Below the pieces are notes generated by a model. That model was given only the letters and a program-made list of their open reading frames with translations, searched no databases and was not told where the DNA came from. A DNA stretch of 54,504 nt, from positions 1-54,504 of the forward strand of contig CAXGUU010000001.1 of NCBI GenBank assembly GCA_964012875.1, written 5' to 3'. Below are positions 8,766 to 32,756 of the stretch, piece by piece. This stretch comes from an uncultured bacterium (lineage in GTDB: Bacteria > Pseudomonadota > Gammaproteobacteria > Ga0077536). Position numbers and translations under genes: made by a program. Numbering within the stretch: position 1 is the stretch's first letter; each line of letters begins with the position of its first letter.

Positions 8766-8990
8766 TGCCACAGGAACAGCGCCTGAACTCGGAGTACCCA
8801 AGGACATCTGAAGATCGTAGACCGTTTCCGACCAGTATGATTCGCGGCTATTGCGAATATGAGGGGCCAGAACACCGCTCGAGCATCGAGCGGCGCCGCC
8901 CACGCGCGACGTTGGCACCATCAATGGGACCGGTACCGACCATCAAAACGCCGCGTTAGGCTGCGGTTTCGAGCTGACATTCGTTTCGGA

Positions 8991-10541
8991 TCAAGGTCGG
9001 AACGGAAACGCGACGGCACCGGTGCGCAATGCGCGTCGGGCGAGCTTGACCCAGCGACAAAGGTGGGCGCGCGTGTGGGAGGGCTCGATGATTTCTTCAA
9101 TTTCGAAGTGCTCGGCACCGCGCAGCGGTGAGCGCACCCGATTCAGTCTCGTTTTAATCTCGGCCAAGTGAGTATCGTAGTCGGAGGCGGCCTCCAACTC
9201 CGCCTTGTAGGCAACCTCGATGCCACCCTCGATGGGTAATGAGCCCCAGTCGCCCGACGGCCAGGCCATACGAAAATGATGGCTGCCAGGTTTTTGATTC
9301 GCGGCACCGGCCACGCCAAATGCTTTCCGGACAACAACCGCGCAGAACGGTACCGTGGATTGACCGAGGGCCGCGAGCGCCTGCGAACCAAAACGGATGG
9401 TGGCTTCGGCCTCGGCCTGTTTACCGATCAAAAACCCCGGACAGTCCTCGAGATGGACAATTGGCAGGTGAAAGGTCGAGGCAATGTCCAGCAGACGAAT
9501 CAATTTACGTGCCGCATCTGCCGTCCACGCGCCGCCATAGACGTATGGATCTTCGGCGAACAATGCCACCGGCACGCCGTCCAGGCGCGCGAACCCACTG
9601 ATGATCGATTTGCCCCAGCCGCCTCCGATTTCAAAAAAGGAGTCGCGATCGACGATCGCATCGATGACCGTTCGCATCTTATAAACCTGGCGCGGGTTCT
9701 TCGGCACGATGGCGTTGAGTTCCGGGGCGCTCCGTTGCGGCGAATCATCGTGCTCGGTCAGTGGTGGTAACTCATCGACATTTTGCGGCAGATAAGACAG
9801 GAATCGTTTTGCCCGCTCGAAAGCTTCTGTTTCGGTCTCGGCCTCGTCGTCTATTGCGCCGTTGCCGGTATGGATCGCGCTTGCGCCTAGTTCTTCTTTA
9901 GACACTTTGCCGAGGCCGGCCCATTCGACCAGCGCGGGACCTGCTATCATCATCTGCGCGGTATCTCTCACAATGACCGAATAATGGCTGGTGGCCACCC
10001 GCGCCGCACCGATACCAGCGACCGAGCCAAGTGCCAAAGCCACTGACGGCGCGACGCTCAAATGTTGTACCACCAGCTCCCAACCTTTGAGTCGCGGAAT
10101 GAAGGTACGGCCTGCAAGTTCGATCGACTTGACGGAGCCGCCGCCACCCATTCCGTCAACGAGCCGGATGTGCGGTAACTTGAGTTCCAGCGCCAGGCCT
10201 TCGGCCTGTGCGCGTTTTTCAGGGATATGCGCTTCCGCGGAGCCGCCACGCACGGTGAAATCGTCGCCGGAGACGATCACCGGTCGGCCGTCGATCTCGG
10301 CGTCACCGAAGAGGAAATTCGAAGGTTTGACGGTGACGAGATCGCCGTTGTCGTCGTATTCCGCGCTGCCAGCGAGCTTGCCGATTTCGTGGAAACTGTC
10401 GCGGTCGACGATGGCCTGGAACCGTTCCCGGATGGTCAGTTTGCCAAAGTGATGTTGGCGTTCAACCTTGTCGACGCCGCCCATGGCGTCAGCGAGTGTC
10501 TCGCGCGCGGCGAGCTCGTCAAGTTCCTTGTCCCAGGTCAT
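8991..10541 (-). CDS. Acyl-CoA carboxylase carboxyltransferase (beta-subunit family)
   Basis: 516 aa. Has the two-domain crotonase-like CT pattern (DDFTVRGGS..., GGAWTADAARKLIRLLD..., FHLPIVHLEDCPGF). Confidence 0.85.
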   Translation of the reverse strand: MTWDKELDELAARETLADAMGGVDKVERQHHFGKLTIRERFQAIVDRDSFHEIGKLAGSAEYDDNGDLVTVKPSNFLFGDAEIDGRPVIVSGDDFTVRGGSAEAHIPEKRAQAEGLALELKLPHIRLVDGMGGGGSVKSIELAGRTFIPRLKGWELVVQHLSVAPSVALALGSVAGIGAARVATSHYSVIVRDTAQMMIAGPALVEWAGLGKVSKEELGASAIHTGNGAIDDEAETETEAFERAKRFLSYLPQNVDELPPLTEHDDSPQRSAPELNAIVPKNPRQVYKMRTVIDAIVDRDSFFEIGGGWGKSIISGFARLDGVPVALFAEDPYVYGGAWTADAARKLIRLLDIASTFHLPIVHLEDCPGFLIGKQAEAEATIRFGSQALAALGQSTVPFCAVVVRKAFGVAGAANQKPGSHHFRMAWPSGDWGSLPIEGGIEVAYKAELEAASDYDTHLAEIKTRLNRVRSPLRGAEHFEIEEIIEPSHTRAHLCRWVKLARRALRTGAVAFPFRP

Positions 10542-17587: not shown

Positions 17588-18799
17588 CTAACTGTTGTCT
17601 TCCATTGTGCCGATTACCTGGTCCTGTTCAAGCGCTGCAATGGCTTCGGCGTCAAGTCCGAGTTCCCCACGCAGAACCTCATGATTGTGCTCACCCAGGC
17701 GCGGTACATGACGACCGACTGTCGCATGCGTTTCAGAAAAGAGGAAGGCCGTGTTTGGCACTTTGAGCGGCCCTTCGGCGTCTTCGATTTCGGTCAACAT
17801 GCCACGATGCAATAACTGCGGGTCGCCATCGAGGTCACGCACATGCCGATAACGCGCGCATGGCAGGTTATGAGATTCAAACGCGTCGATGCATTGGTCG
17901 CAGCTATGATTGCGCGTCCACTGCTCGATTTCCCCTTGCAGAAAATCGTAGTTGTGCACCCGCGCCGTCGTCGTTTTAAAGCGCTCATCGTTAAGCATGT
18001 CGGATTTGCCGATGATCCTGACCAAGGCTTCAAAGTGATGTTGATTGAGTGGCACCACAATGACAAAACCGTCAGTCGTTTCGAGCGGTCCGTAGTGACG
18101 GTCGTTCATATCACCGAGAAACGCGGTCTGAAAATCCTTGTGCATGTTCGCCAGGAGGATGTCCTGCATGGCGATGTCGATGTACTGGCCCCGTCCCGTT
18201 TTCTCGCGATGGTACAGCGCCGCCATGATGGCGCCGAACGCTTGTTGTGCGGCCCCCGTGTCGCCGATAGGTAAGCCCATGTTGAGCGGCTTGGTCTGGC
18301 CGACCTGACTACGCAGATAAACGTACTCGAAACCACTGGTCGCCTGGACGATTGGGGCATAGGCCGGGCGCCAGGCTTCGGGCCCGGTTTGCCCGTAACC
18401 GGACACTGAACACATGATCAGCTGCTCATTAAGCTCCTGCAGTTTTTCGTATTCGAGGCCGAGGCGCTGCATGACGCCGGGACTGAAATTCTCCACGACC
18501 ACGTCATGGGTTTTAACGAGTCCCCGGCAGATCTCAATGGCCCGATCCTGCTTCAGATCCAGCGACAGGCAACGCTTGCCGCTGTTCATGGCACTGAAGA
18601 GCGCGCTAGTCTTGCCGCGCATGGGACCGGCGTGGCGTAGGATTTCGCCACTGAGACCTTCGACTTTCAGTACGGCAGCGCCGAGATCAGCCATCATCCG
18701 GGTGCAATACGAACCGGCAATTACGGCGGTAAAGTCGAGGACTTTGACGCCGTCCAGAATACGGGGGCCGGATTCGCTGCGGTTTTGCTCGATGGACAT
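17588..18799 (-). CDS. CaiB/BaiF family (class III) CoA-transferase
   Basis: 403 aa. LDGVKVLDFTAVIAGSYCTRMMADLGAAVLKVE is the typical N-terminus. Confidence 0.85.
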   Translation of the reverse strand: MSIEQNRSESGPRILDGVKVLDFTAVIAGSYCTRMMADLGAAVLKVEGLSGEILRHAGPMRGKTSALFSAMNSGKRCLSLDLKQDRAIEICRGLVKTHDVVVENFSPGVMQRLGLEYEKLQELNEQLIMCSVSGYGQTGPEAWRPAYAPIVQATSGFEYVYLRSQVGQTKPLNMGLPIGDTGAAQQAFGAIMAALYHREKTGRGQYIDIAMQDILLANMHKDFQTAFLGDMNDRHYGPLETTDGFVIVVPLNQHHFEALVRIIGKSDMLNDERFKTTTARVHNYDFLQGEIEQWTRNHSCDQCIDAFESHNLPCARYRHVRDLDGDPQLLHRGMLTEIEDAEGPLKVPNTAFLFSETHATVGRHVPRLGEHNHEVLRGELGLDAEAIAALEQDQVIGTMEDNS

Positions 18800-22597: not shown

Positions 22598-23614
22598 TCA
22601 GTCCGGCGCTACGCCTTTCGGCACCTTGTAGACCGTCGCTGCGGTGTCATGAAACATCGCCACCTGTTCATCTTCTGAGTAGCTTTGGGCGAGTCGTTTG
22701 AAGGCATTCCAGAGCACGGCGTAACTGCAACTGACCTTGTCGACCGGAAAGTTGCTTTCGAACATGCAGCGTTCGGGCCCGAAGTTTTCAATAGCGAAGT
22801 GGTAGTAATGCCCATTCGTTTGCGCGAGGTCCTCGGAGCTGACGCCTACGGCGCGTTTATGTAGGTCAAAGCCGTTGATCGGCATGGCTAGTCCACCAAG
22901 TTTCGCGTAAACATTTCTGCACTTTGCCAGTTCTGCGACAGACTGTTTCCAGGCCGTGAATACTTCATCACGTTGGTCTTTAAACGGTCCAATGCCAAGT
23001 GGCCCGCCGAAGTGATCAAAGATGATTATCTGATCCGGAAAGGCCCGTGCTAGCGCGGTCAGATCGTCTATCTGCGGATGATAGAGCCAGGCGTCAAACG
23101 TGAGATTCCGCTTCTTCAATTCCCGCATACCTTCGTGAAACAAAGGCCGGCTTAGCAGGTCCTGAGTTGGCCTGGTGTGCGAATTGCGGATAGCGTCGCT
23201 GTCGGACCAGCCGCTGGCATGGCGAATCCCGACAAAACGTTTGCTTGCCGCGATATGGCCATCGAGCACTTCTCCGACCGCGCTTCCTAATGTCAGATCG
23301 GCGAAGCCAACGATTGACGCACACAGTTTTGCCTTGCCGTAGTTGCCGCTTGCACTCATGGCGGCCATGCCATTGACGAACTCCGTTTCGCCCACCGGCT
23401 TCATCGCTTCGGGGCCGTTTGCGCGATACATCGCCATGCACTCCATGAATACCGTACTGACCACGTTGTGTCCGCTTGATACGTCAGCCAGCAGTTCGTC
23501 AAGCAGGTACCTATGATGGGGGTAGTCCCATAAATGATGATGCGGATCGCAAATCGCCCGATCGGGATCGATGATAGGTTCCTCGGGCATCTGCGGTCGG
23601 GTGGTTTCGCTCAT
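22598..23614 (-). CDS. Amidohydrolase-2 (ACMSD-like TIM-barrel metal hydrolase/decarboxylase) family protein
   Basis: 338 aa, ICDPHHHLWD metal-binding start motif and ...FDHFGGP.... Confidence 0.8.
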   Translation of the reverse strand: MSETTRPQMPEEPIIDPDRAICDPHHHLWDYPHHRYLLDELLADVSSGHNVVSTVFMECMAMYRANGPEAMKPVGETEFVNGMAAMSASGNYGKAKLCASIVGFADLTLGSAVGEVLDGHIAASKRFVGIRHASGWSDSDAIRNSHTRPTQDLLSRPLFHEGMRELKKRNLTFDAWLYHPQIDDLTALARAFPDQIIIFDHFGGPLGIGPFKDQRDEVFTAWKQSVAELAKCRNVYAKLGGLAMPINGFDLHKRAVGVSSEDLAQTNGHYYHFAIENFGPERCMFESNFPVDKVSCSYAVLWNAFKRLAQSYSEDEQVAMFHDTAATVYKVPKGVAPD

Positions 23615-23768: not shown

Positions 23769-25358
23769 ATGCCGGAAGTTGATGAGTCGTTGCGCCTGTG
23801 GGGCTGGTTTTTTCTGGCCCTGTACATCCTGGCGATGATGGGGTTTGGTTACCTCGGGATGCGACGCGTGACCTCGAGTGACGACTTTGCCACCGCGCGT
23901 GGCGGTTACGGACCGGTGTTTCTGGCCTTTGCCCTGACCGCCACGGCGGCGAGTGGCGGCACCTTCGTCGGCATACCGGCAATCGGATACACCAGCGGCA
24001 TCTCGGTCTTCTGGTATTCGACCTTTTACCCGCTGGGACTGTATTTCGGGCTTGTGCTGTGTCTGCGCGGTATCCGCCGTGCGGGCGCCGCGTTTGGCAC
24101 GCGGTCGATGCCGGAATACTTAGGCGAGCGTTTCGATTCCGACGCGCTGCGCATTCTTGCGGCTCTCTTTTCGCTCCTGCTCTTGTTCTACCTCGCCGGA
24201 CAGTTGCTCGCCGGTGCCGTGATGTTTAACAAGATGATGGGTGTCGATCTCTTCCCGGCGCTGGTGACAACGGCGGTCATCATCATGGTTTACATCGTCA
24301 TCGGCGGCGCCCACGCGGATATTCTGACTGACGGTGTGCAGGGCGCACTGATGCTGGCACTCGCGATTGCCGTCGCCATCATGTTCTTTTCCGGGGTCGG
24401 TGTGGTCGGTGGTTTCGGCGGCATGATGGAAAACCTGCGTCAGCAGGATCCAGCCTTAACGTCGCTGTTTCATCCGACCACGCCGTTTCTCGATTCGAAG
24501 TGGGATGTATTCGCCTTGTTCCTGATGCATGCACCGCTTGGCCTTCTACCGCATGTTGGCAACAAGCTCTGGGCGCTGAAAAGCGATAGCGATCAAAACA
24601 AATTCATTGCGCTGTCGTTCGGCTTCGGCATGCTGCTCCCGCTCATCGCTACCGGTGGTATTCTCGCCCGTGCGCTGTTGGGTGATGCCCTTCTCATTGA
24701 AGGTGCGAGCCCGAATGACGCCATTCCCTCGTTGTTTATCGTCCTGTTACCGACCTGGCTCGCGGCACTGGTCGGTGCCGGTGTGCTTGCCGCGGTGATG
24801 TCCACTGCAGACGGATTGGTTGTCTCGACATCACAGATTTTTGCCAACGATATCTACCGGCTGTCGATTGTGCCGCGCCTCAAAAACAAGCCGAGCGAAG
24901 CGACGATTGATCGCGTGGCATTAATCACCAGTCGAGCGGGCTCGGTAATCGTCGTTTCCGGTTCTATCTGGCTCGCCTGGGTATCCCAGTCCATGAACGT
25001 GGCGTTGCTCATTGCGGCTGGTATCGGCGGCATGATCGCGGCGATTGCGGGGCCCATCTTTGCCGGTATTCTGTGGGAAGGCGCGACCAGAGTAGGCGCA
25101 CTCGCCGGGTTCGTGGTCGGCGGTTTTTCCTTTGTGCCTATTAAAGCGGGTTGGATCGATGCCGAATGGTTTATTGGCGGGCCGCTTGAGGCCGCTGGTT
25201 CCTGGCTCGCGGCGCAGGCGGCCAACCCGTTCGCCTGCGGCACGATATCGGCACTGTTGTCGTTGGCCACGGTGGTCCTGGTTTCGTGGTTTACCGAACG
25301 GCCGAGTGAGGCGCATTTAAACAAGGTCTTCGGTGAGGGCCGGGCGCCTGCTACATAG
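23769..25358 (+). CDS. Sodium:solute symporter (SSS) family transporter
   Basis: 529 aa with about 13 hydrophobic segments. GGAGG SD upstream. DFATARGGYG... is typical of the SSS N-terminus. Confidence 0.9.
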   Translation: MPEVDESLRLWGWFFLALYILAMMGFGYLGMRRVTSSDDFATARGGYGPVFLAFALTATAASGGTFVGIPAIGYTSGISVFWYSTFYPLGLYFGLVLCLRGIRRAGAAFGTRSMPEYLGERFDSDALRILAALFSLLLLFYLAGQLLAGAVMFNKMMGVDLFPALVTTAVIIMVYIVIGGAHADILTDGVQGALMLALAIAVAIMFFSGVGVVGGFGGMMENLRQQDPALTSLFHPTTPFLDSKWDVFALFLMHAPLGLLPHVGNKLWALKSDSDQNKFIALSFGFGMLLPLIATGGILARALLGDALLIEGASPNDAIPSLFIVLLPTWLAALVGAGVLAAVMSTADGLVVSTSQIFANDIYRLSIVPRLKNKPSEATIDRVALITSRAGSVIVVSGSIWLAWVSQSMNVALLIAAGIGGMIAAIAGPIFAGILWEGATRVGALAGFVVGGFSFVPIKAGWIDAEWFIGGPLEAAGSWLAAQAANPFACGTISALLSLATVVLVSWFTERPSEAHLNKVFGEGRAPAT

Positions 25359-25427
25359 CCCACAGACTGGCCACGGATTGTCTCGAAGCGCTACAGTAGG
25401 TGGTACTTGGATCGAGACGGTTCAGCC

Positions 25428-26069
25428 ATGACGCAAATCGAAGTATTCAGCCCGATCGCGCAAAGCCGTGTGTTATCGCGCGAACTCGCATCCCGCAGTG
25501 GCGATCTCGCATCCAAACGCGTCGCCTTGCTCGACAACCTCAAGGCCAATGCCGGCGCCCTGCTCGAAGGGGTCGCCGCCAAAATGCAGACGGCCAATCC
25601 CGGCGTCGAAGTGTGCCGCTTTGAGAAGGAAGCAACAGCGGCCGCATCGGATGTTGTGATGGCGCATTTGAAAACTTTCGATGCCGTTGTTCTTGCCATC
25701 GCGGACTGAGGCTCCTGTACGTCGTGGAGTGTCCATGACTCGATTGAACTGGAGCAACTGGGTGTGCCGACGGCACTCCTGTGCACCGACGAGTTCGGAC
25801 CGTTGGCCCGGGCAGAGTCGGAAGTGCTAGGCATGCCGGGTCTGCCCTTAATCGCAATACCGCATCCGCTCGCTGGTAATGAGCATGGTCTTGTCACGGC
25901 TAAGGCCGCGGCGATTGCAGGCGAAGTACGTGATGCGCTCAGCGCTCCGGTTGACGAGGTCACCACACGCTACCGGGGGAGATTCACGACCTTGACCGAG
26001 CGCCGTCTGAGCGACGGTGCGGTCTGCGTTGACGAAGTGTGCGCGCTAGACCCGGCGATGGCGCGCTGA
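25428..26069 (+). CDS. Candidate selenoprotein with U-G-S-C motif (in-frame TGA 25707-25709 read as Sec)
   Basis: Track ORFs 25407..25709 and 25764..26069 share a frame and the 54 nt between them are open. Read-through gives 213 aa, ...FDAVVLAIAD-U-GSCTSWSVHD.... The second ORF has only a GTG and no SD. Confidence 0.65.
25703..25734 (+). other. Candidate SECIS-like hairpin enclosing the UGA
   Basis: GGAC[UGAG]GCUCC-(10-nt loop UGUACGUCGU)-GGAGU GUCC. A 4-bp outer stem and a 5-bp inner stem (one G.U pair), with UGA in the bulge. Folded by hand only. Confidence 0.3.
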
Positions 26070-26083
26070 GCGTTGCCTGGACG

Positions 26084-27106
26084 ATGACGATGGCGCAAAC
26101 GATTCGTCTCGACGCCGACACGATTGACGATACTTTCGAAGCGGAAGGCTGGAGCGACGGCTTGCCGGTCGTGCCGCCGACGCCGGCGCGCGTGAACGCC
26201 ATGCTGGCTCAAAGTGGATGGGATGCAAGCCATGAATTCGGCACCATGCCGCCGCGTCACGGCGTCGTCACGCCACACATTCTTGCCGTCAACGCGGTCA
26301 TGGCCGGGTGCCGTCCCGAGTACTTTCCGGTTGTGGTTGCGGCAGTACGGGCGATACTTGACCCGCTGTTTAACCTGTTCGCGGTGCAGGCGACGACCCA
26401 TCCTTGCGGACCTTGCGTGATCGTCAACGGACCCATCGCTGGCGAACTCGGCATTAACGCCCGTTATGGTGCCTTCGGCCCCGGCACGCGGGCCAATGCG
26501 ACCATCGGCCGCGCTATTCGTTTGATCCTCATGAACGTCGGTGGCGCCAGGCCCGGGATACTCGACCGCTCGACCCAGGGGCAGCCAGCCAAGTACGCCT
26601 GTTGCGTCGCTGAGAACGAGGCCGAAAGCCCGTTTGAACCGCTGCACGTGAGTCGCGGTTTTGACGCCGACGAGTCAGTCGTCACCGTAACCGCCGCCGA
26701 AGGCCCGCACAATCTGAACGATCACGTCAGCGACAAGGCCGCCGGGATTCTTGCCACACTACGCGGCGCGATGAACGACATGGGGTCAAATAATGCCTAC
26801 CTGTATGGCAATCCGACCCTGGCGCTGGGCCCCGAGCATGCTGCCATTATCGCAGCTGGTGGCTACGATCGGCGCCGGCTGCAACAGTTCGTATTCGACG
26901 AAGTGCGTATCGAGCGCAAGCACTGGCTTGAAGGCGGTATGGCAAAAATGTTCAACGATGATTTCGCTGATGCCAGCGCCATTCCTATTATTCGGCGCCC
27001 CGAAGACTTACTGGTTATGGTCGTCGGTGGCTTCGGGCGGCACTCCTGCTGGCTGCCGACTTTCGGCGAGAGTACGCAAGCGGTATCGATGCGGGTGGAG
27101 CGTTAG
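26084..27106 (+). CDS. Conserved uncharacterised protein with DGLPVVPPT and HPCGPC (thioredoxin-like CxxC) motifs
   Basis: Track ORF 26039..27106 trimmed to ATG 26084, 14 nt after the upstream stop. Coding-like composition, 340 aa. I recognise no family. Confidence 0.75.
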   Translation: MTMAQTIRLDADTIDDTFEAEGWSDGLPVVPPTPARVNAMLAQSGWDASHEFGTMPPRHGVVTPHILAVNAVMAGCRPEYFPVVVAAVRAILDPLFNLFAVQATTHPCGPCVIVNGPIAGELGINARYGAFGPGTRANATIGRAIRLILMNVGGARPGILDRSTQGQPAKYACCVAENEAESPFEPLHVSRGFDADESVVTVTAAEGPHNLNDHVSDKAAGILATLRGAMNDMGSNNAYLYGNPTLALGPEHAAIIAAGGYDRRRLQQFVFDEVRIERKHWLEGGMAKMFNDDFADASAIPIIRRPEDLLVMVVGGFGRHSCWLPTFGESTQAVSMRVER

Positions 27107-27175
27107 AATCGCTGTCATGGAACAACGAGCAGGGCAGCAGAGCTGCCGCCATAACCTTTTCAAGAGGAGATGCAT

Positions 27176-28525
27176 ATGAACAGTGCTGCGGTCGACCAAC
27201 TGGGATTTTCGATTGAAGGCGACGTATTACGCGCTGGCGATGCCGGTTATGACGAGGCGCGAACGATCTGGAACGCGATGATCGACAAGCGTCCTGCACT
27301 GATTGCGCGTTGCCGGAACGCAACCGATGTTCGGGCAGCTGTTCGCTTCGCGCGCGACAATGGCCTTCTGGTCTCGGTTCGTGGCGGTGGCCACAATGTC
27401 GCGGGGAATGCCATCTGCGACGACGGTCTGATGATCGATTTGTCGCTGATGAAAGAGGTGCAAATTGATAAGGCGGCGGCACGGGTCAAAGTGGGTGGTG
27501 GTGCGACGCTGGGCGATCTGGATCGTGCGACGTACGCCGAGGGCCTGGCCGTACCCGCTGGTATCGTTTCTGAAACGGGCGTCGGTGGACTGACACTGGG
27601 TGGTGGCGTCGGCTGGCTGGTGCGCAAGCACGGTATGACCTGCGACAACCTGGTGTCGGCGGAAGTGGTTACCGCTGACGGTCGTATTGTCACGGCAAGT
27701 GCCAGCGAGAACGACGATTTGTTCTGGGGACTGCGTGGTGGCGGGGGCAATTTTGGCGTGGTTACCACGTTCGAGTTCAAGGCCTATCCGCTGACTACGG
27801 TGGTCGGCGGCATGATCCTCTTCCCGCGCGACGACGCCGCCGAGGTCTATCGTTTCTACCGCGATTTCACCAAGCAGGCACCACTCGATCTGACCGCTTA
27901 TTGCGCATGCCTGTGTACGCCCGATGGCATGCCGGTGACAGCAGTCATTGCGTGTTACAGCGGCGATCTGGCGCAGGCCGAGTCGGTCCTCGCGCCGCTC
28001 AGGAGTTTCGGCAATCCGGTCGCCGACATGCTGCAGGAAATGCCGCGTATCGACATGCAGACGATGTTTGACGCCGGCTTCCCGTATGGAAATCGTAACT
28101 ACTGGAAATCGGCCTTCGTGGACGAATTGACCGACGATGCCATCGACATTGTCGTTGAACGTGCCAATCTCAATCCGTCACCCTTGTCGGCATTGATGAT
28201 CGAGTACTACTACGGCGGTCCGTCAAGCGAGATTGGCGAAACTGAAACTGCGTTCGCGCACCGCGCCGCACAGTATGACGTCGGCATCGTCGGGCAATGG
28301 GTCGAGAGCAGCGACGACCACAAGAATATGAGCTGGGTGCGCGAAACCTATGATGCGCTTGCGCCGTTTAACAACGGGCGCATTTACGCCAACCTGATGG
28401 GTAGTGACCAGATGACCGACGAGCTGCAAAGTGCATTCGGCCCCAACTATGAGCGTCTGGTGGCACTGAAGCGTAAATACGACCCGGATAATTTTTTCCG
28501 ACTGAACCAGAACATCAAGCCCTGA
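27176..28525 (+). CDS. FAD-linked oxidase (PCMH FAD_binding_4 domain plus BBE-like C-terminus)
   Basis: RGGGHNVAGNA...GGGVGWL...GLRGGGGNFGVVT and C-terminal KYDPDNFFRLNQNIKP. AAGAGGAG SD precedes ATG 27176. Confidence 0.85.
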   Translation: MNSAAVDQLGFSIEGDVLRAGDAGYDEARTIWNAMIDKRPALIARCRNATDVRAAVRFARDNGLLVSVRGGGHNVAGNAICDDGLMIDLSLMKEVQIDKAAARVKVGGGATLGDLDRATYAEGLAVPAGIVSETGVGGLTLGGGVGWLVRKHGMTCDNLVSAEVVTADGRIVTASASENDDLFWGLRGGGGNFGVVTTFEFKAYPLTTVVGGMILFPRDDAAEVYRFYRDFTKQAPLDLTAYCACLCTPDGMPVTAVIACYSGDLAQAESVLAPLRSFGNPVADMLQEMPRIDMQTMFDAGFPYGNRNYWKSAFVDELTDDAIDIVVERANLNPSPLSALMIEYYYGGPSSEIGETETAFAHRAAQYDVGIVGQWVESSDDHKNMSWVRETYDALAPFNNGRIYANLMGSDQMTDELQSAFGPNYERLVALKRKYDPDNFFRLNQNIKP

Positions 28526-28536
28526 TTTCGATTGCG

Positions 28537-28558
28537 CCGCGCGCTGCTGGAAGCGCGG
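28537..28558 (+). terminator. Weak hairpin (6-bp GC stem, 10-nt loop) followed by TTT after the FAD-oxidase stop
   Basis: CCGCGC-gctgctggaa-GCGCGG-ttt. Confidence 0.3.
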
Positions 28559-28566
28559 TTTAAGGT

Positions 28567-30091
28567 ATGACGATGACCGCCAACCTGCGTGCCCTGCCGG
28601 AGGGCGCGCAGATCCTGTGATATCGGATCAAGCGCGTGCTGGGCCAGGGGGGCTTTGGCATCACCTACCTGGCGGACGATAAAAACCTGCAGCAACAGGT
28701 CGCGCTGAAGGAATATTTTCCCTCGGCCTTTGCCGTACGCGGGCCGGACAGTGCAGTGGTCGCGGCATCGGCCGATGTCGCCGGTGAGTTCCAGTGGGGG
28801 TCTCGAGCGCTTTGTGGAAGAGGGGCGTACGCTCGCAAAGTTTGATCACCCGGGTATTATGCGCGTGCAGTCAGTCTTTGAGCATTCGGGGACTGCCTAT
28901 CTTGTAATGCGCTATGAAAACGGAGAAACGCTGAGCGATCTGCTGAAGCGTGAACCGCGCTTACCTGAAGAGCGAGTTGTCGCGCTCCTTGATGACGTGA
29001 TGGATGGTTTGTCCCAGGTCCATGAGGCCGGCTTTATTCATCGCGACATCAATCCGGGGAACCTGTTCCTGCGTGAGCGTGGCGGCGCGCTGTTGATTGA
29101 TTTCGGCGCCGCGCACCAGTCGCTTGGTGAGCACAGCCAGAGCCTGACAGCGATCGTCTCGCCCGGTTATGCGCCGTTCGAACAATATTTCAGCGACGGT
29201 GCCAGGCAGGGGCCATGGACAGATATTTATGCACGGGATGCGACGGCCTATCGGGCGGTATCCGGCGTTGCGCCCATGCCGGCTGTCGATCGATCGCGTG
29301 CTTTGTTGAGCGGCCAGTCCGACACCCTCGTACACCTGGAATCATTGGACAATGTCATGGTGAGCGCGAATTTCCTGGCTGCGGTGAATGCCGCGATGCA
29401 GTTTCAGCCCGAAGCGCGCCCACAGTCCGCGCAAGACTGGCGGGAGATTTTCCAGCACGGCGTCGATGCTGTAGCCGCAGAGCCCAGTGAAGCGCCAACG
29501 ATGATGGCCGAAGCGGAAACGATCCTAGCCGCAGCCGATGCGGAACCAAAAAAGGCCTGGTACAAAAAGAAGCGCCACGTCATTCTCCTGATTGTTTTCG
29601 CACTGTTCGTACTGTTCGGAAGAGATGAACCGGGTCGCAACCAAGGGCCGGCGGTCGGCACGGATGTGAGTATCGCTGATGACACTCGGCGCGACGCATC
29701 ACGGGATGGGGGAGATCTTGATCGCCGTGACGCTGCTGTCGAGGCACGGCCAGCAACGGATATTTCGACGGAAATCCCGGAAAACCGCATAGCGCGCTTG
29801 TTGGACGAAGCCGGAAACGATATTGCCGAGCAGCGCCTGACCCGTCCCCCCGTGAACAATGCGGTCGAAAAATACACAGCGGTACTGGCGCTCGACCCGG
29901 ACAATCAGTCGGCGCGCGAGGGAATCGACCTCGTCGCCAGGCGTTACCTTGAAATGGCACGTTCCAAAGATCGGAAGTTGCCGCAAACTTTTGATGCTGC
30001 CGTTCAGGCACTGAAAAACGGTGAGGTCGAGAAGGCGCGCAAGTTGTTACGCAACGCGGCGAAGCGGGCTGGCGCTAAAGCACGGAATTAG
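28567..30091 (+). pseudogene. Hanks-type Ser/Thr protein kinase with TM segment and C-terminal repeat domain, disrupted by an in-frame TGA and a +1 frameshift
   Basis: MTMTANLRALPEGAQIL-TGA(28618)-YRIKRVLGQGGFGITY...VALKEY...EFQWG continues in the +1 frame as GLERFVEEGRTLAKFDHPGI...HRDINPGN...DFG...SPGYAPFE. The shift lies in the G5 run 28796-28800. Confidence 0.75.
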
Positions 30092-30147
30092 GGCACCGAC
30101 TCGGGTCGCTTACGAGCGTAGCCTTGCTTGCGCTGTTTGGTCTCGCG

Positions 30148-31878
30148 CTAGGCGGGCGTTTGCGGACCACGAATTAAACGACCCGGCAACGCGCCGGTGG
30201 CTTCGCCGTCTTCGAAAGTCACGTCGCCCCGCAGGATGGTCGTGTGATAGCCGGACGCCCGCTGAATCAGTCGCTGACCGGACGCGGGCAGGTCATAAAC
30301 CATTTCCGGCAATGGCAGCGAGAGATTGTCGAAGTCAATGAGGTTAATGTCTGCCCGCATGCCTGGTTCTATCAACCCGCGGTCCAGGAAACCGTAAAGT
30401 GCGGCCGTATCCCGTGTCTGCATTTTGATCGCCTGCTCCAGTCCGATTCGCTCGCCACGCGCACGATCGCGCACAAAATGCGAGAGTAAGTAAGTCGGTG
30501 CACTGGCGTCGCAGATCATGCCGCAGTGCGCGCCACCATCACTGATCCCGAGCACGGTATTGGGGTGCAGCATCATTTCCCGGGCAACGTCGTAGTTACC
30601 CGCGTTGTAATTAAACAGCGGTGAATACAGGAAGGCTTTGCCCTCGCTTTCGAGCAGCAGGTCGTAGGCGGCTTCTTCCGCGGACTTGCCTTCGCGCCGG
30701 GCGATCGCGTCGACGCTCAAATCCGCCCCCGGTTCATACTCCGGCGGTTCGCCGAGTCGAAAAATACGATCATAGTCAGCGATCGTTGTATTCATGGCCT
30801 TGCCTTCCATGAACAACAGACGCAGCAGTCGTGCGGGCCGTGAGTCAGGCCCTTGGAGAATTTTTGCCCTTACCTCGGGCTTGCGCATCATCGCGACGCG
30901 TTCAGCCAGGGGTAAATGCGCAATGCTCTGATAAGCGGTCCGGCCGGTGAACGGGTGTGTCCCTTCCAAACACATCAGGCACCCGGGCGGTCGAATCGCC
31001 ACCTGCGGATACATGCCGTGGTGGCGTCTAGCGGCATAGTCCAGCAGCCGCTCCCACTGCGACGGGTCTTCATCGTTCTGCACGCAGGCATAGGTTACCT
31101 TGCAGCCGCTGTTGTCGATAATGTCGTCCATCCACAGCAGCTCGTCTGTTTCGGGGGCAAGGTCAGACGCGACTTCAAACACTGCGCTCCCGGCTTTGCC
31201 CATGGCATTAGCGATGGTGGTCAGTTCGATCGCATCGGCGTCGGTGCCGGGAACAACTTCGCCGTCTATTGAACGGTGCAGGATCGTGCGCGAGGTCGTG
31301 AAACCGACCGCGCCCGCGCGAACCGCCTCGGCGACAATCTCGGCCATTGCCTTACGCTCATCTTCGTTCGCTTCGACATCGGTCGCGCCGCGCTCGCCCA
31401 TGACATAGGCGCGCACGGCCCCGTGTGGGACCTGCGCCGCAAGATCCATCGCGCGGGTTGAGCGGTTCAGGGCATCGAGGTATTCGGGAAAGGTTTCCCA
31501 GTCCCATTTAATGCCTTCGGCCAGGGCCGTGCCGGGAATATCTTCAACGCCTTCCATGAGGCCGATGAGCCAGTCATGTTTGGCCGGATTGGCTGGTGCG
31601 AAGCCAACGCCACAATTGCCCATTACGGCAGTTGTTACACCATGCCAGGACGAGGGCGTGAGGTAGGGATCCCAGGTAGCCTGGCCGTCGTAATGGGTGT
31701 GCACGTCGACCCAGCCTGGGGCGAGTAACAAACCGTTCGCGTTGATCTCGCGTCTGGCCGGCCCGAGTTTGCCCCCGACGGCGGCGATGGTATCGCCATC
31801 AATGGCGACATCGCCGTTGAAGCGGTCGCCGCCAGAGCCGTCGACAACTTGGGCGTTGCGAATAACCAGATCGTGCAT
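30148..31878 (-). CDS. N-acyl-D-amino-acid deacylase (D-aminoacylase) family amidohydrolase
   Basis: Trimmed to ATG 31878. MHDLVIRNAQVVDGSG...DVAIDGDTIAAVG...GWVDVHTHYDGQ is the typical family N-terminus. Confidence 0.85.
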   Translation of the reverse strand: MHDLVIRNAQVVDGSGGDRFNGDVAIDGDTIAAVGGKLGPARREINANGLLLAPGWVDVHTHYDGQATWDPYLTPSSWHGVTTAVMGNCGVGFAPANPAKHDWLIGLMEGVEDIPGTALAEGIKWDWETFPEYLDALNRSTRAMDLAAQVPHGAVRAYVMGERGATDVEANEDERKAMAEIVAEAVRAGAVGFTTSRTILHRSIDGEVVPGTDADAIELTTIANAMGKAGSAVFEVASDLAPETDELLWMDDIIDNSGCKVTYACVQNDEDPSQWERLLDYAARRHHGMYPQVAIRPPGCLMCLEGTHPFTGRTAYQSIAHLPLAERVAMMRKPEVRAKILQGPDSRPARLLRLLFMEGKAMNTTIADYDRIFRLGEPPEYEPGADLSVDAIARREGKSAEEAAYDLLLESEGKAFLYSPLFNYNAGNYDVAREMMLHPNTVLGISDGGAHCGMICDASAPTYLLSHFVRDRARGERIGLEQAIKMQTRDTAALYGFLDRGLIEPGMRADINLIDFDNLSLPLPEMVYDLPASGQRLIQRASGYHTTILRGDVTFEDGEATGALPGRLIRGPQTPA

Positions 31879-31997
31879 TACAGAGTCCTGTCTCGAATGA
31901 AGTGTTCTTTGTAGACAGGCCAGTATATCCAGCGTCCGGCCAAGCTGCGATATGCTTAACAATCAACGCGTCGGGGTGGCGCCGCCAAGGGGACATC

Positions 31998-32756
31998 ATG
32001 GGGCAGCAAGGCAAACTCAAGGTCGAAGATTTCGGGGCATCGATGCCGGTCACCGGAGAGGCCATACAGAAACCGCCGTTCTATTACCGCGATATGGATA
32101 TGATGTTTCTGACCTATCGCACTGATGAAGCCGCCGCCGTGGCCTGGTTGCCTGAGGCGCTGGAACTCGATGAGCCGGCGCTCGTGACCATTATTCTCGC
32201 TTATTACGGGTGGTCCACATTCGGGCCTTACTACGAGGCGATGATGGCCATTCGGTCGCGCATGAACGGCAAGGTCTATAGCTACTATCCGGCGCTTTTC
32301 ACAGACAACGAGGCGCCCTTAATCGGGGGCCGCGAAATATGGGGCTTCGCCAAGAAGCTGGCGCATATGGAAATCAAACACGAAAGTGAGGTCATGATGG
32401 GGCTGGTCGAGCGGCCGAAAGGAAATCGTTTGATCACAGCCACCATGCGCAACGTCACGCCTGTCGCGGTCGAGGATTTCGCCCTGACACCGAGCATCTC
32501 ACTGAAGATGATTCCGTGCGCGACCGATGCAACGCGTCCGGCTTTGGCGCAGTTGATCGGCAGTTCGCTCGCACTCAAGCCGCATATCGGCAGCAACGGC
32601 ATCCCGCATATCTGGAGTGGACCGGGTACTGTTTCCTACGACGTACCGTCCGCGATTGATCCCTGGTGCAAACTGCCGGTCCTTGAAATGGTGGCCTGCG
32701 TGTCGGGCCGTTTTGACGCCGTGCTCGGACACGGCGAAATACTGGCCGAGCTTTAA
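31998..32756 (+). CDS. Acetoacetate decarboxylase (ADC) family protein
   Basis: Trimmed to ATG 31998, with AAGGGGA upstream. PPFYYRDMDMMFLTYRTD...GGREIWGFAKK match the ADC family pattern. Confidence 0.8.
   Translation: MGQQGKLKVEDFGASMPVTGEAIQKPPFYYRDMDMMFLTYRTDEAAAVAWLPEALELDEPALVTIILAYYGWSTFGPYYEAMMAIRSRMNGKVYSYYPALFTDNEAPLIGGREIWGFAKKLAHMEIKHESEVMMGLVERPKGNRLITATMRNVTPVAVEDFALTPSISLKMIPCATDATRPALAQLIGSSLALKPHIGSNGIPHIWSGPGTVSYDVPSAIDPWCKLPVLEMVACVSGRFDAVLGHGEILAEL

What the first reader, a model, noticed from the sequence alone, without database searches (positions are those of the whole stretch)
23769..28525. Uncharacterised four-gene operon: SSS transporter, UGSC selenoprotein, CGPC-motif protein, FAD/BBE oxidase
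Four same-strand genes are separated by gaps of 69, 14 and 69 nt. There is no internal terminator-like structure until the hairpin at 28537. The products are a Na+/solute symporter, a U-x-x-C protein, a 340-aa unknown protein with an HPCGPC motif (the thioredoxin active-site tetrapeptide CGPC) and an FAD-linked oxidase with a BBE-type C-terminus. A divergently transcribed amidohydrolase-2 gene shares the promoter region. I infer an import-plus-redox-conversion module for an unknown small molecule, in which a Sec/Cys and Cys/Cys pair may relay electrons. I know of no characterised pathway with this composition.
Basis: inference. Interest (0 to 1): 0.75.

Follow-up and report, generated by a model that had tools for sequence, protein, structure and literature searches.

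The report
Selenoprotein UGSC and its obligate partner
The four genes are real, but only two belong together across bacteria: a selenocysteine protein of long-unknown function (UGSC) and an unnamed 340-residue partner, which probably form a new selenium-dependent reductase, while the transporter and the FAD oxidase are local neighbours.

Summary
The sequence observation holds. Four co-directional genes (SSS transporter, UGSC selenoprotein with in-frame TGA at 25707, a 340-aa protein here called P3, and a FAD/BBE oxidase) lie opposite a divergent Amidohydro_2 gene.

The four-gene operon is not a conserved unit. In 83 loci from other genomes, a UGSC gene sits next to P3 in 78. SSS and the FAD oxidase appear in 0 of 83. 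The closest relative (P3 83% identical) has Amidohydro_2/SSS/UGSC/P3 but no FAD oxidase.

UGSC and P3 are also often one polypeptide, in either domain order. P3 is additionally found fused to a thioredoxin-reductase-like flavoprotein, a ferredoxin:thioredoxin-reductase catalytic subunit, or an AhpC/TSA domain.

The CGPC motif is not conserved (both Cys in at most 6 of 69). The conserved P3 residues are C76, C174, D25, R143 and E177.

UGSC is a catalogued family (NF041046, PF24696) with no known function. It has a flavodoxin-like fold and weakly resembles the Sec region of GrdB/PrdB. P3 matches no Pfam, NCBIfam or PDB entry.

Best reading: a widespread, uncharacterised two-component Sec-dependent reductase with an unknown substrate.

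The parts
25428..26069 (+). UGSC-family selenoprotein, 213 aa, with Sec at residue 94 in the motif D-U-G-S-C. It has a flavodoxin-like alpha/beta fold and a C-terminal C-V-D-E-V-C tail.
   Evidence: NF041046 scores 134.9 bits against a cutoff of 125; PF24696 E = 5.4e-44. Translation. Invariant residues P9, N37, K39, K67, D93, U94, G95, S96, C97. The UGSC domain of the fusion model matches flavodoxin-like structures such as lumazine synthase, CheY and succinyl-CoA synthetase beta.
25707..25709 (+). In-frame UGA read as selenocysteine.
   Evidence: A stop codon at this aligned position occurs in 79 of 82 UGSC homologs next to P3, and 74 of 75 internal stops are TGA.
25721..25739 (+). SECIS-type hairpin GUCGUGGA-GUG-UCCAUGAC, lying 15-33 nt from the U of UGA. 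It is encoded within the conserved peptide T-S-W-S-V-H-D.
   Evidence: Fold. 67 of 74 unique homologous sequences keep at least 7 of 8 pairs. 93.6% of cells are paired, against 18-47% when the partner strand is slid. Compensatory changes are GC>AU and GC>CG. The loop is GUN in 71 of 74.
26084..27106 (+). P3: a 340-aa partner of UGSC from a large unnamed family. Conserved residues are D25, C76 (MAGC), R143, C174 and E177. The CGPC at 108-111 is lineage-specific.
   Evidence: No Pfam, NCBIfam or PDB sequence hit for P3 or for 69 relatives. 5138 clusters at 50% identity. AlphaFold2 pLDDT 96.2; Foldseek against PDB gives no hit with E < 1e-3 and TM no higher than 0.28. Conservation.
23769..25358 (+). 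Sodium:solute symporter (SSS) of unknown substrate. It is a neighbour of UGSC-P3 only in this lineage.
   Evidence: PF00474 E = 1.7e-54; TIGR00813 scores 176.5 bits, below its cutoff of 184. Adjacent in the close relative L084. Absent from 83 other loci and from four further close relatives.
22598..23614 (-). Divergent Amidohydro_2 (metal-dependent hydrolase or decarboxylase superfamily). A lineage-specific neighbour.
   Evidence: PF04909 E = 1.1e-29; the best NCBIfam match (L-fucono-1,5-lactonase) is far below its cutoff. Present in L084. A recognisable homolog occurs in 1 of 83 loci. The Amidohydro_2 family occurs 5 times among 249 flanking ORFs.
27176..28525 (+). FAD-linked oxidase (FAD_binding_4 plus a BBE C-terminus). 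It is not part of the conserved unit and lies in a ~3-kb segment that the nearest relative lacks.
   Evidence: PF01565 E = 2.2e-36 and PF08031 E = 4.5e-13; BagK/FevA1 scores 240 bits against a cutoff of 800. Absent from L084, where Amidohydro_3 follows P3 directly. Found in 0 of 83 loci.
28536..28559 (+). GC-rich hairpin after the oxidase stop codon; a weak candidate terminator.
   Evidence: 7-bp stem with a 10-nt loop, followed by UUUAAGG. -13.5 kcal/mol, z = +0.6 against shuffles. Not reported by the terminator scan.

Best explanation
The conserved functional unit is the gene pair UGSC (25428-26069) plus P3 (26084-27106), not the four-gene cluster.

I infer that the two proteins form one enzyme, either as a tight heterodimer or, in many organisms, as a single fused polypeptide. 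This enzyme would be a selenocysteine-dependent thiol/selenol oxidoreductase.

P3 would supply the substrate pocket, using invariant D25, R143 and E177 and near-invariant C76 and C174. The flavodoxin-like UGSC domain would supply the redox-active U-G-S-C centre. After each turnover a selenenylsulfide or disulfide would be re-reduced. The reductant would be a thioredoxin-reductase-type flavoprotein, or thioredoxin or FTR-type donors.

The closest working analogy is the substrate-specific 'protein B' of the glycine, sarcosine, betaine and D-proline reductases (Sec subunit GrdB or PrdB plus a partner subunit). An alternative analogy is a thioredoxin-dependent reductase served by a dedicated redoxin.

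In this genome and its nearest relative the pair sits behind an SSS transporter and opposite an Amidohydro_2 gene. These may feed it a small solute in this lineage only. The FAD/BBE oxidase is an unrelated later arrival.

Shown: the pairing, the fusions, Sec decoding, fold confidence and the lack of four-gene conservation. Inferred: reductase chemistry, the direction of electron flow and physical complex formation. The substrate is unknown.
For: Pairing. A UGSC homolog flanks P3 in 78 of 83 loci from at least 10 phyla or classes. 3 of the 5 exceptions are contig ends. The two genes share a strand in 77 of 78. The pair is also present in five further close relatives.

Fusions.
- 13 of 68 complete pairs are a single reading frame running through the Sec codon.
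- About one third of the 150 best cluster representatives of P3 carry an N-terminal UGSC part.
- Both domain orders exist: P0125 and P0129 versus P0130 and P0188.
- P3 is also fused to Pyr_redox_2 (TrxR-like, CAVCD motif, E = 6e-41), to FeThRed_B (E = 2e-21) and to AhpC-TSA (E = 7.5e-7).
- A TrxR-like gene lies within 300 nt of the pair in 11 loci.

Structure. AlphaFold2 models the natural fusion P0125 as one compact body, with pLDDT 93.4 and pTM 0.93.

Resemblance to GrdB/PrdB. 12 of 23 UGSC members hit GrdB TIGR01917 (best E = 6e-6). 8 hit GrdF, 7 hit TIGR01918, 5 hit GrdH and 3 hit PrdB. All hits fall on C-terminal model positions ~317-430 of 431-435 (e.g. TIGR01917 335-397/431), which I take, from memory of the family and not from an alignment seen here, to be the Sec-containing region.

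Sec usage. 79 of 82 copies use Sec here, and the GOS survey counted 255 Sec against 21 Cys forms (PMC2398784). A ratio this high is typical of a catalytic Sec.

Context. The flanks are otherwise unrelated: 144 Pfam families among 119 upstream ORFs and 152 among 130 downstream ORFs. The pair therefore behaves as a self-contained unit.
Against: No biochemical data exist for either family.

P3 has no detectable similarity to GrdE or PrdA, or to any other Pfam or NCBIfam model, or to any solved structure. The Prd/Grd analogy therefore rests on the Sec domain alone, at sub-threshold scores (17-21 bits against cutoffs of 65-602).

I had no model coordinates. I could not check whether Sec94 faces C76 or C174 of P3.

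Most loci (about 70 of 83) have no reductase gene nearby. The window itself has none within the ORFs I annotated.

The weak Foldseek hits of P3 are to Fe-S hydro-lyases and cyclic amide hydrolases (TM about 0.25). This leaves non-redox chemistry open.
Confidence: 0.6

Rival explanations
1. All four genes (SSS, UGSC, P3, FAD/BBE oxidase) form one operon that imports a small molecule and converts it by redox chemistry. Electrons would be relayed from the U-x-x-C pair to a CGPC pair.
For: The genes are co-directional with short gaps of 69, 14 and 69 nt and no intergenic terminator-like site. SSS, UGSC, P3 and the divergent Amidohydro_2 are conserved in the closest relative, L084. Co-transcription in this organism is not excluded.
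Against: SSS and the FAD oxidase are absent from 83 of 83 other loci, from four further relatives with 72-75% P3 identity, and from the top flanking families. L084 lacks the oxidase altogether. The CGPC motif is not conserved: C108 in 15 of 69 and C111 in 6 of 69. P3 shows no thioredoxin-fold match.
Confidence: 0.12
2. UGSC-P3 is a general antioxidant or repair system rather than a metabolic reductase. Examples would be a peroxidase, or a reductase of sulfoxides or of protein or low-molecular-weight disulfides. Sec would act as in Sec-peroxiredoxins or Sec-MsrA. This is a sub-case of the best explanation with a defined class of substrate.
For: The pair sits in very heterogeneous genomic contexts, like a housekeeping gene. 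In P0251 an AhpC/TSA domain replaces UGSC. Partners are of the TrxR and FTR type. Reviews list UGSC among presumed redox selenoproteins (PMC13188914).
Against: The UGSC domain matched flavodoxin-like structures, not thioredoxin or peroxiredoxin folds. P3 has invariant D, R and E residues that suggest binding of a charged small molecule. Tandem P3 paralogs in 23 loci suggest substrate diversification.
Confidence: 0.15
3. The four Cys/Sec ligands (U94 and C97 of UGSC, C76 and C174 of P3) bind a metal or Fe-S centre at the subunit interface. P3 would then be a hydro-lyase- or hydrolase-type enzyme, not a dithiol reductase.
For: The only Foldseek hits for P3, though weak, are class I (Fe-S) fumarate hydratases, Fe-S L-serine dehydratase and cyclic amide hydrolases (E = 3e-3 to 6, TM 0.22-0.28). 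Exactly two conserved Cys in P3 plus two in UGSC would make four ligands.
Against: TM scores are below 0.3 with rmsd above 11 Å, which is not significant. UGSC can be replaced by, or joined to, dithiol-disulfide exchange modules (TrxR, FTR-beta, AhpC/TSA), which points to thiol redox chemistry. A natural fusion, P0128, has lost the C-G-S-C motif entirely.
Confidence: 0.08
4. The TGA at 25707 is a true stop, from a pseudogene or an assembly error. The two halves would then be separate small ORFs.
For: Gene callers split the gene into 93-aa and ~100-aa ORFs in public records. No tRNA-Sec, selA, selB or selD was seen in the ORFs I annotated, and ARAGORN found no tRNA in the window.
Against: TGA occupies the same codon in 74 of 75 cases across phyla, with conserved protein sequence on both sides. 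Cys occupies that position in the three exceptions. A conserved, covarying SECIS hairpin follows. The curated NF041046 model names the family '(seleno)protein'.
Confidence: 0.02

Closest known systems
UGSC family (seleno)protein (NCBIfam NF041046, Pfam PF24696); the 'UGSC-containing protein' of Zhang and Gladyshev 2007/2008
   Same: The window protein scores above both curated cutoffs. It has the U-G-S-C motif, an in-frame UGA and a SECIS hairpin. It is a plain member of this family. [quoted passage not shown]
   Different: Nothing differs at the family level. The literature gives the family no function and guessed a thioredoxin-like fold. The AlphaFold2 model instead matches flavodoxin-like structures.
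Selenoprotein B subunits of glycine, sarcosine, betaine and D-proline reductases (GrdB, GrdF, GrdH, PrdB; TIGR01917, TIGR01918, TIGR04483)
   Same: Both have a U-x-x-C redox motif. About half of the UGSC sequences show recurrent weak profile similarity to the C-terminal part of these models (positions ~317-430), which I take to hold the Sec, best E = 6e-6. Both work with a second, non-seleno subunit, use Sec almost exclusively, and are linked to a thioredoxin-reductase system (Grd/Prd properties are from established knowledge).
   Different: Scores are far below the family cutoffs. UGSC is about 170-210 aa and corresponds only to the C-terminal part of GrdB. The partner P3 shows no similarity to the pyruvoyl proproteins GrdE or PrdA. 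No GrdA, GrdC, GrdD or PrdC genes appear in the window ORFs I annotated or among the recurrent neighbours. Hosts are mostly aerobic proteobacteria, actinobacteria and Chloroflexi, not amino-acid-fermenting clostridia.
'UGSC/Unknown_1 fusion' reported from the Global Ocean Sampling data (PMC2398784, Fig. S1A)
   Same: That report describes a UGSC protein fused to a conserved domain of unknown function that contains conserved Cys. This is very probably the UGSC-P3 fusion seen here.
   Different: The figure is held only as an image, so I could not confirm identity with P3. The paper does not report gene adjacency, reductase fusions, fold or scale (over 5000 clusters).
Thioredoxin-dependent reductases with C-terminal Cys-pair shuttles or dedicated redoxins (class I ribonucleotide reductase R1 C-x4-C tail, NrdH, MsrA/B, ArsC). 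This is an analogy only.
   Same: P3 is fused to, or sits beside, interchangeable dithiol donors: UGSC, an AhpC/TSA-type domain, TrxR and FTR-beta. A C-x-D-x-x-C tail sits at the C-terminus of either UGSC or P3. This is as expected for a redox shuttle. The comparison is my inference from textbook knowledge of RNR.
   Different: There is no sequence or fold relationship. The analogy concerns electron delivery only.

Membership tests
UGSC family (seleno)protein (NF041046 / PF24696) | Whole-protein HMM score above the curated cutoff | tested here: met
   NF041046 scores 134.9 bits against a cutoff of 125. PF24696 scores 150.8 bits against a cutoff of 25.
UGSC family (seleno)protein (NF041046 / PF24696) | U/C-G-S-C motif at the conserved position, with U encoded by in-frame UGA | tested here: met
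   D-U-G-S-C at residues 93-97, with TGA at 25707-25709. The motif is invariant in 23 aligned members.
UGSC family (seleno)protein (NF041046 / PF24696) | Bacterial SECIS stem-loop shortly downstream of the UGA | tested here: met
   Hairpin at 25721-25739. It is conserved in 67 of 74 unique sequences, with compensatory changes.
Glycine/betaine/sarcosine/D-proline reductase selenoprotein B (TIGR01918, TIGR01917, TIGR04483) | HMM score above the curated cutoff | tested here: not met
   TIGR01918 scores 17.1 bits against a cutoff of 65.45. TIGR01917 scores 21.1 bits against 602. The matches are only local, to model positions about 317-430.
Glycine/betaine/sarcosine/D-proline reductase selenoprotein B (TIGR01918, TIGR01917, TIGR04483) | Partner subunit is a GrdE/PrdA-type self-cleaving pyruvoyl proprotein | tested here: not met
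   None of 69 P3-family members hits any Pfam or NCBIfam model at E up to 10. Self-cleavage at C76 is conceivable but cannot be tested here.
Glycine/betaine/sarcosine/D-proline reductase selenoprotein B (TIGR01918, TIGR01917, TIGR04483) | Accompanying GrdA and GrdC/D (or PrdC) genes | tested here: not met
   They are not among the window ORFs annotated. They are also not among the 25 most frequent families in 249 flanking ORFs of 80 loci. The whole genome was not available.
   C108 is present in 15 of 69 and C111 in 6 of 69 homologs. Typical variants are HPVAPL, HPCAPL and NPVTPL.
   AlphaFold2 model with pLDDT 96.2. No thioredoxin-fold protein appears among the Foldseek PDB hits, and no Pfam thioredoxin-clan hit was found.
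Conserved four-gene operon (SSS, UGSC, P3, FAD/BBE oxidase) | The same neighbours recur in other genomes | tested here: not met
   UGSC-P3 recurs in 78 of 83 loci. SSS is in 0 of 83 and the oxidase in 0 of 83. SSS recurs only in the 83%-identical relative L084, and the oxidase is absent there too.
Conserved four-gene operon (SSS, UGSC, P3, FAD/BBE oxidase) | Co-transcription of the four genes | not testable with these tools
   Only indirect evidence is available: short gaps and no intergenic terminator-like site. A stable hairpin (-24.2 kcal/mol, z = -2.06) lies between SSS and UGSC.
Sodium:solute symporter family (PF00474) | Pfam domain above the gathering score | tested here: met
   185.7 bits against a cutoff of 22.8. 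No equivalog-level match was found, so the substrate is unknown.
VAO/BBE-type FAD-linked oxidase | FAD_binding_4 domain plus a BBE C-terminal domain | tested here: met
   PF01565 scores 125 bits and PF08031 scores 49.4 bits. The nearest named enzymes, BagK/FevA1, score 240 bits against a cutoff of 800, so this is not an equivalog.

The most novel reading that the evidence does not exclude
UGSC plus P3 (with optional P3 paralogs and a dedicated TrxR-like flavoprotein) is a previously unrecognised class of selenocysteine-dependent two-component reductase. It would be distantly patterned on the clostridial Grd/Prd 'protein B' enzymes. Unlike them, it has an unrelated catalytic partner with no solved relative in the PDB, and it is spread across aerobic Proteobacteria, Actinobacteria, Chloroflexi, Binatia, Methylomirabilota and haloarchaea. 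This would finally assign a role to one of the most abundant orphan selenoprotein families in aquatic metagenomes.
Probability: 0.4. Interest if true: 0.8.

Novelty: new variant of a known kind. Interest (0 to 1): 0.6.

Why it matters
UGSC has been listed since 2007-2008 among the most abundant selenoproteins of marine and freshwater metagenomes. A 2026 review still gives it no function.

This analysis shows that UGSC almost never occurs near P3 without being coupled to it. P3 belongs to a very large family (over 5000 clusters at 50% identity) that has no Pfam or NCBIfam model and no solved relative. P3 is repeatedly fused to disulfide reductases.

That turns an orphan selenoprotein into a defined and testable two-subunit enzyme. 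Cultivable hosts are available: Blastococcus, Vineibacter terrae, Robertmurraya, and Natrialba asiatica for the Cys form.

It also corrects the local picture. The transporter and the FAD oxidase should not be used to guess the substrate.

Tried and rejected
1. Sequence searches of P3, UGSC and their profiles against all PDB chains returned nothing meaningful.

2. Pfam and NCBIfam scans of 69 P3 relatives at E up to 10 gave only scattered single chance hits. This includes no hit to GrdE or PrdA.

3. Foldseek of the P3 model against PDB gave a best E of 2.8e-3 and TM no higher than 0.28. I treat these as non-matches.

4. I tried to model the window's own UGSC(U>C)+P3 as a concatenated pseudo-fusion with a paired alignment. 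I modelled the natural fusion P0125 instead. No coordinates are returned, so Sec-to-Cys distances could not be measured.

5. I searched for UGSC homologs in the protein database. Only 12 were found, because Sec genes are split by gene callers.

6. Rfam and tRNA scans of the window found nothing.

7. I compared intergenic regions with the closest relative, L084. They are not conserved, so this gave no regulatory insight.

8. I tried to confirm that 'Unknown_1' of the GOS paper is P3. The figure is held only as an image.

9. I considered the archaeal 'Nitrosocosmicus' Sec-containing locus L039 as a surprise. I rejected it as mis-binning because its GC content is 72%.

Full report
OBSERVATION

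The window is a 54.5-kb contig of an uncultured gammaproteobacterium. The identical P3 protein, P0002, is recorded from an NCBI MAG on a 54504-bp contig.

ORF listing and translation confirm four + strand genes:
- an SSS transporter at 23769-25358;
- a 213-codon gene at 25428-26069, interrupted by TGA at 25707-25709;
- a 340-codon gene at 26084-27106, called P3 here;
- a FAD oxidase at 27176-28525, with an alternative ATG at 27170.

The gaps are 69, 14 and 69 nt. A divergent Amidohydro_2 gene lies at 22598-23614.

Pfam and NCBIfam confirm the families: SSF, UGSC (PF24696; NF041046 at 134.9 bits, above its cutoff of 125), FAD_binding_4 plus BBE, and Amidohydro_2. P3 matches nothing.

No terminator-like site falls in the intergenic gaps. 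The hairpin after the oxidase (28536-28559) is real but no better than shuffled sequence.

THE SELENOPROTEIN IS REAL

I fetched 83 loci by similarity to P3. The neighbouring UGSC gene has a stop codon at the U position in 79 of 82 copies and Cys in 3. Of the internal stops, 74 of 75 are TGA.

An 8-bp hairpin (GUCGUGGA-GUN-UCCACGAC) lies 15-33 nt from the UGA, at window 25721-25739. It keeps at least 7 of 8 pairs in 67 of 74 unique sequences. 93.6% of cells are paired, against 18-47% when the 3' arm is slid. Compensatory GC>AU and GC>CG changes occur, and the loop is GUN in 71 of 74.

The hairpin is encoded by the conserved peptide T-S-W-S-V-H-D, so protein and RNA constraints overlap.

WHAT IS CONSERVED AROUND IT

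A profile of P3 found more than 600 matches in the one-genome-per-species collection. I examined the best 80. They come from Gamma-, Alpha- and Betaproteobacteria, Binatia, Methylomirabilota/Rokubacteria, Chloroflexi/Dehalococcoidia, Acidimicrobiia, Actinomycetes, a Bacillota isolate and a haloarchaeon.

tblastn with the window's five proteins gave these results:
- A UGSC homolog lies beside P3 in 78 of 83 loci, and three of the five misses are contig ends.
- The two genes share a strand in 77 of 78.
- UGSC is upstream in 67 and downstream in 10.
- SSS is found in 0 of 83, the FAD oxidase in 0 of 83 and the amidohydrolase in 1 of 83.

Pfam scans of 249 flanking ORFs found 144 and 152 different families upstream and downstream. 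The most frequent were TctC (18), Pyr_redox_2 (11), CoA_transf_3 (7), SDR (5), Amidohydro_2 (5) and Amidase (4). SSF and FAD_binding_4 were not among the top 25.

Close relatives tell the same story.
- L084 (P3 83% identical) has GST, nitroreductase, DUF502, DUF445, Amidohydro_2, SSF, UGSC and P3, as in the window. P3 is then followed directly by the Amidohydro_3 and ADC genes, which sit at 30148-32756 in the window. The ~3-kb stretch holding the FAD oxidase and a protein-kinase gene is therefore an indel.
- Five other relatives with 65-75% identity have UGSC-P3 in entirely different surroundings.

It is emphatically not met for the UGSC-P3 pair.

FUSIONS

In 13 of 68 complete pairs the UGSC frame runs through the Sec codon straight into P3.

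P3 has 5138 clusters at 50% identity with E below 1e-3. Among the 150 best representatives, 18 carry about 200 extra N-terminal residues. About 36 more carry 65-130 extra residues, which is the post-UGA half of UGSC left by gene callers.

Sequences and Pfam scans confirm the following architectures:
- UGSC(Cys)+P3 (P0125, P0129);
- P3+UGSC, ending exactly before the Sec codon (P0130, P0188);
- P3 plus a thioredoxin-reductase-like flavoprotein with a CAVCD motif (P0141, Pyr_redox_2, E = 6e-41);
- the ferredoxin:thioredoxin-reductase catalytic chain plus P3 (P0212, E = 2e-21);
- AhpC/TSA plus P3 (P0251);
- tandem P3-P3 (P0145, P0162).

A TrxR-like gene lies within 300 nt of the pair in 11 loci. 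One example is the alphaproteobacterial arrangement TrxR, UGSC, P3, P3' in L064. 23 loci hold a second P3 paralog.

THE PROTEINS

P3 residues D25, R143 and E177 are invariant. C76 (motif MAGC) is present in 66 of 69 and C174 (motif KYxxCxAENE) in 63 of 69.

AlphaFold2 gives a very confident P3 model (pLDDT 96.2, pTM 0.94). Foldseek finds no PDB relative. The best E is 2.8e-3 and TM is no higher than 0.28, to Fe-S fumarate hydratases and cyclic amide hydrolases.

The natural fusion P0125 is modelled as one compact body (pLDDT 93.4, pTM 0.93). Its UGSC domain is a beta-alpha-beta sandwich, with the C-G-S-C motif at a strand-to-helix junction. It matches flavodoxin-like structures (lumazine synthase, CheY, succinyl-CoA synthetase beta; TM about 0.5 on the target). 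No thioredoxin-fold protein was among the listed matches, although the 2008 paper guessed a thioredoxin-like fold.

UGSC sequences recurrently hit the Sec-containing part of the protein-B selenoproteins of the glycine, sarcosine, betaine and D-proline reductases. 12 of 23 hit GrdB (best E = 6e-6), 8 hit GrdF, 7 hit TIGR01918, 5 hit GrdH and 3 hit PrdB. All scores are far below the family cutoffs.

A C-x-D-x-x-C tail is present on the window's UGSC (CVDEVC). In other lineages it sits on the C-terminus of UGSC (6 loci) or of P3 (3 loci).

MECHANISM: INFERENCE

The evidence consists of the pairing, fusions in both orders, the compact fusion model, the interchangeability of UGSC with thioredoxin-fold, TrxR and FTR modules, and the near-exclusive use of Sec.

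Together these fit one enzyme. P3 would bind a small, probably charged, substrate. The U-x-x-C centre would deliver two electrons or attack the substrate directly. The resulting selenenylsulfide or disulfide would be recycled by NAD(P)H through a TrxR-type flavoprotein or by cellular thioredoxin.

Two sub-models cannot be separated here:
- Prd/Grd-like, with Sec as the nucleophile on a substrate held by the partner. This might involve a pyruvoyl group made by cleavage at G75|C76, which is pure speculation.
- Redoxin-like, with UGSC reducing a C76-C174 disulfide in P3.

The substrate is unknown. The very heterogeneous gene contexts argue against reading it from neighbours. In the window's lineage the SSS transporter and the Amidohydro_2 gene may be connected, but that rests on two genomes.

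COMPARISON WITH WHAT IS KNOWN

The UGSC gene is an ordinary member of a catalogued family whose function is still unknown (PMC1976440, PMC2398784, PMC9312934, PMC13188914). A 'UGSC/Unknown_1 fusion' was noted in 2008 without follow-up. It is probably the same partner, but I could not verify this.

The system is not a member of the Grd/Prd reductases. Scores are below cutoff, there is no GrdE/PrdA-type partner, and no GrdA, GrdC or GrdD genes were seen. It may still work like them.

VERDICT

The sequence-level observation is confirmed. The four-gene operon and the CGPC relay are not supported. The UGSC-P3 coupling is strongly supported and extends to a widespread, uncharacterised Sec-dependent two-component enzyme.

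My confidence is about 0.9 that UGSC-P3 is the true conserved functional unit. It is about 0.6 that the pair is a thiol/selenol reductase recycled by thioredoxin-type systems.

Noticed in passing
window 28570-30091 (+): The Ser/Thr protein-kinase gene downstream of the oxidase appears frameshifted. The glycine-rich loop and VALK motif (GQGGFGITY...VALKEYFP) are in ORF 28636-28845. The rest of the Pkinase domain (profile positions 43-253) is in another frame, in ORF 28730-30091. This is either a pseudogene or an assembly error.
   Followed up: partly
window 27107-30147 compared with L084 9027-9093: The FAD/BBE oxidase and the kinase form a ~3-kb segment that the closest relative lacks. There, Amidohydro_3 and ADC follow P3 directly. 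This is an insertion in the window or a deletion in the relative. No repeats or mobile-element genes were looked for at the borders.
   Followed up: partly
window 25369-25427 (SSS-UGSC intergenic): A stable stem-loop (-24.2 kcal/mol, z = -2.06, about 12-bp stem) ends just before the UGSC start codon and may cover its ribosome-binding site. The region is not conserved in L084. It could be an attenuator or a translational control element, or it could be chance.
   Followed up: partly
window 26021-26038 (UGSC C-terminus); L073, L074 and L082 P3 C-termini: A C-x-D-x-x-C tail motif (CVDEVC in the window) sits at the C-terminus of UGSC in the gamma, Acidimicrobiia and Binatia group. In three betaproteobacterial and Dehalococcoidia loci it sits at the C-terminus of P3. 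It behaves like a movable redox or metal-binding tail.
   Followed up: partly
L064 6546-9965 (and L049, L053, L055, L057, L060, L062, L065, L067-L069, L077): Alphaproteobacterial loci carry a four-gene version: TrxR-like flavoprotein, UGSC(Sec), P3 and a divergent second P3 paralog. In L064 the second paralog is split over two frames (8783-9799 and 9417-9965), probably a sequencing frameshift.
   Followed up: partly
L039 (record titled Candidatus Nitrosocosmicus sp.): A Sec-containing UGSC-P3 pair sits on a contig assigned to an ammonia-oxidising archaeon. The contig is 72% G+C, which is incompatible with that genus. It is almost certainly mis-binned rather than archaeal Sec usage.
   Followed up: yes
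P0128 (553-aa natural fusion): One UGSC-P3 fusion has lost the C-G-S-C motif completely (AEIGGSLFG at that position) while keeping the rest of both domains. The UGSC domain may therefore also have a structural role.
   Followed up: no
L085 1188-1511, L086 1866-2189, L087 4428-4739, L088 4986-5303: In several gammaproteobacterial relatives a small DUF1840 gene (about 105 aa) lies on the opposite strand next to the UGSC-P3 pair. TauD-family dioxygenase genes also recur nearby (L088, the P0042 locus and three of the 130 downstream ORFs).
   Followed up: no
window 17588-18799 (-): A family III CoA-transferase gene lies about 6.6 kb upstream of UGSC. The same family is one of the more frequent families within 8 kb of P3 in other genomes (18 loci by clustering). 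This may only reflect how abundant these paralogs are in such genomes.
   Followed up: no
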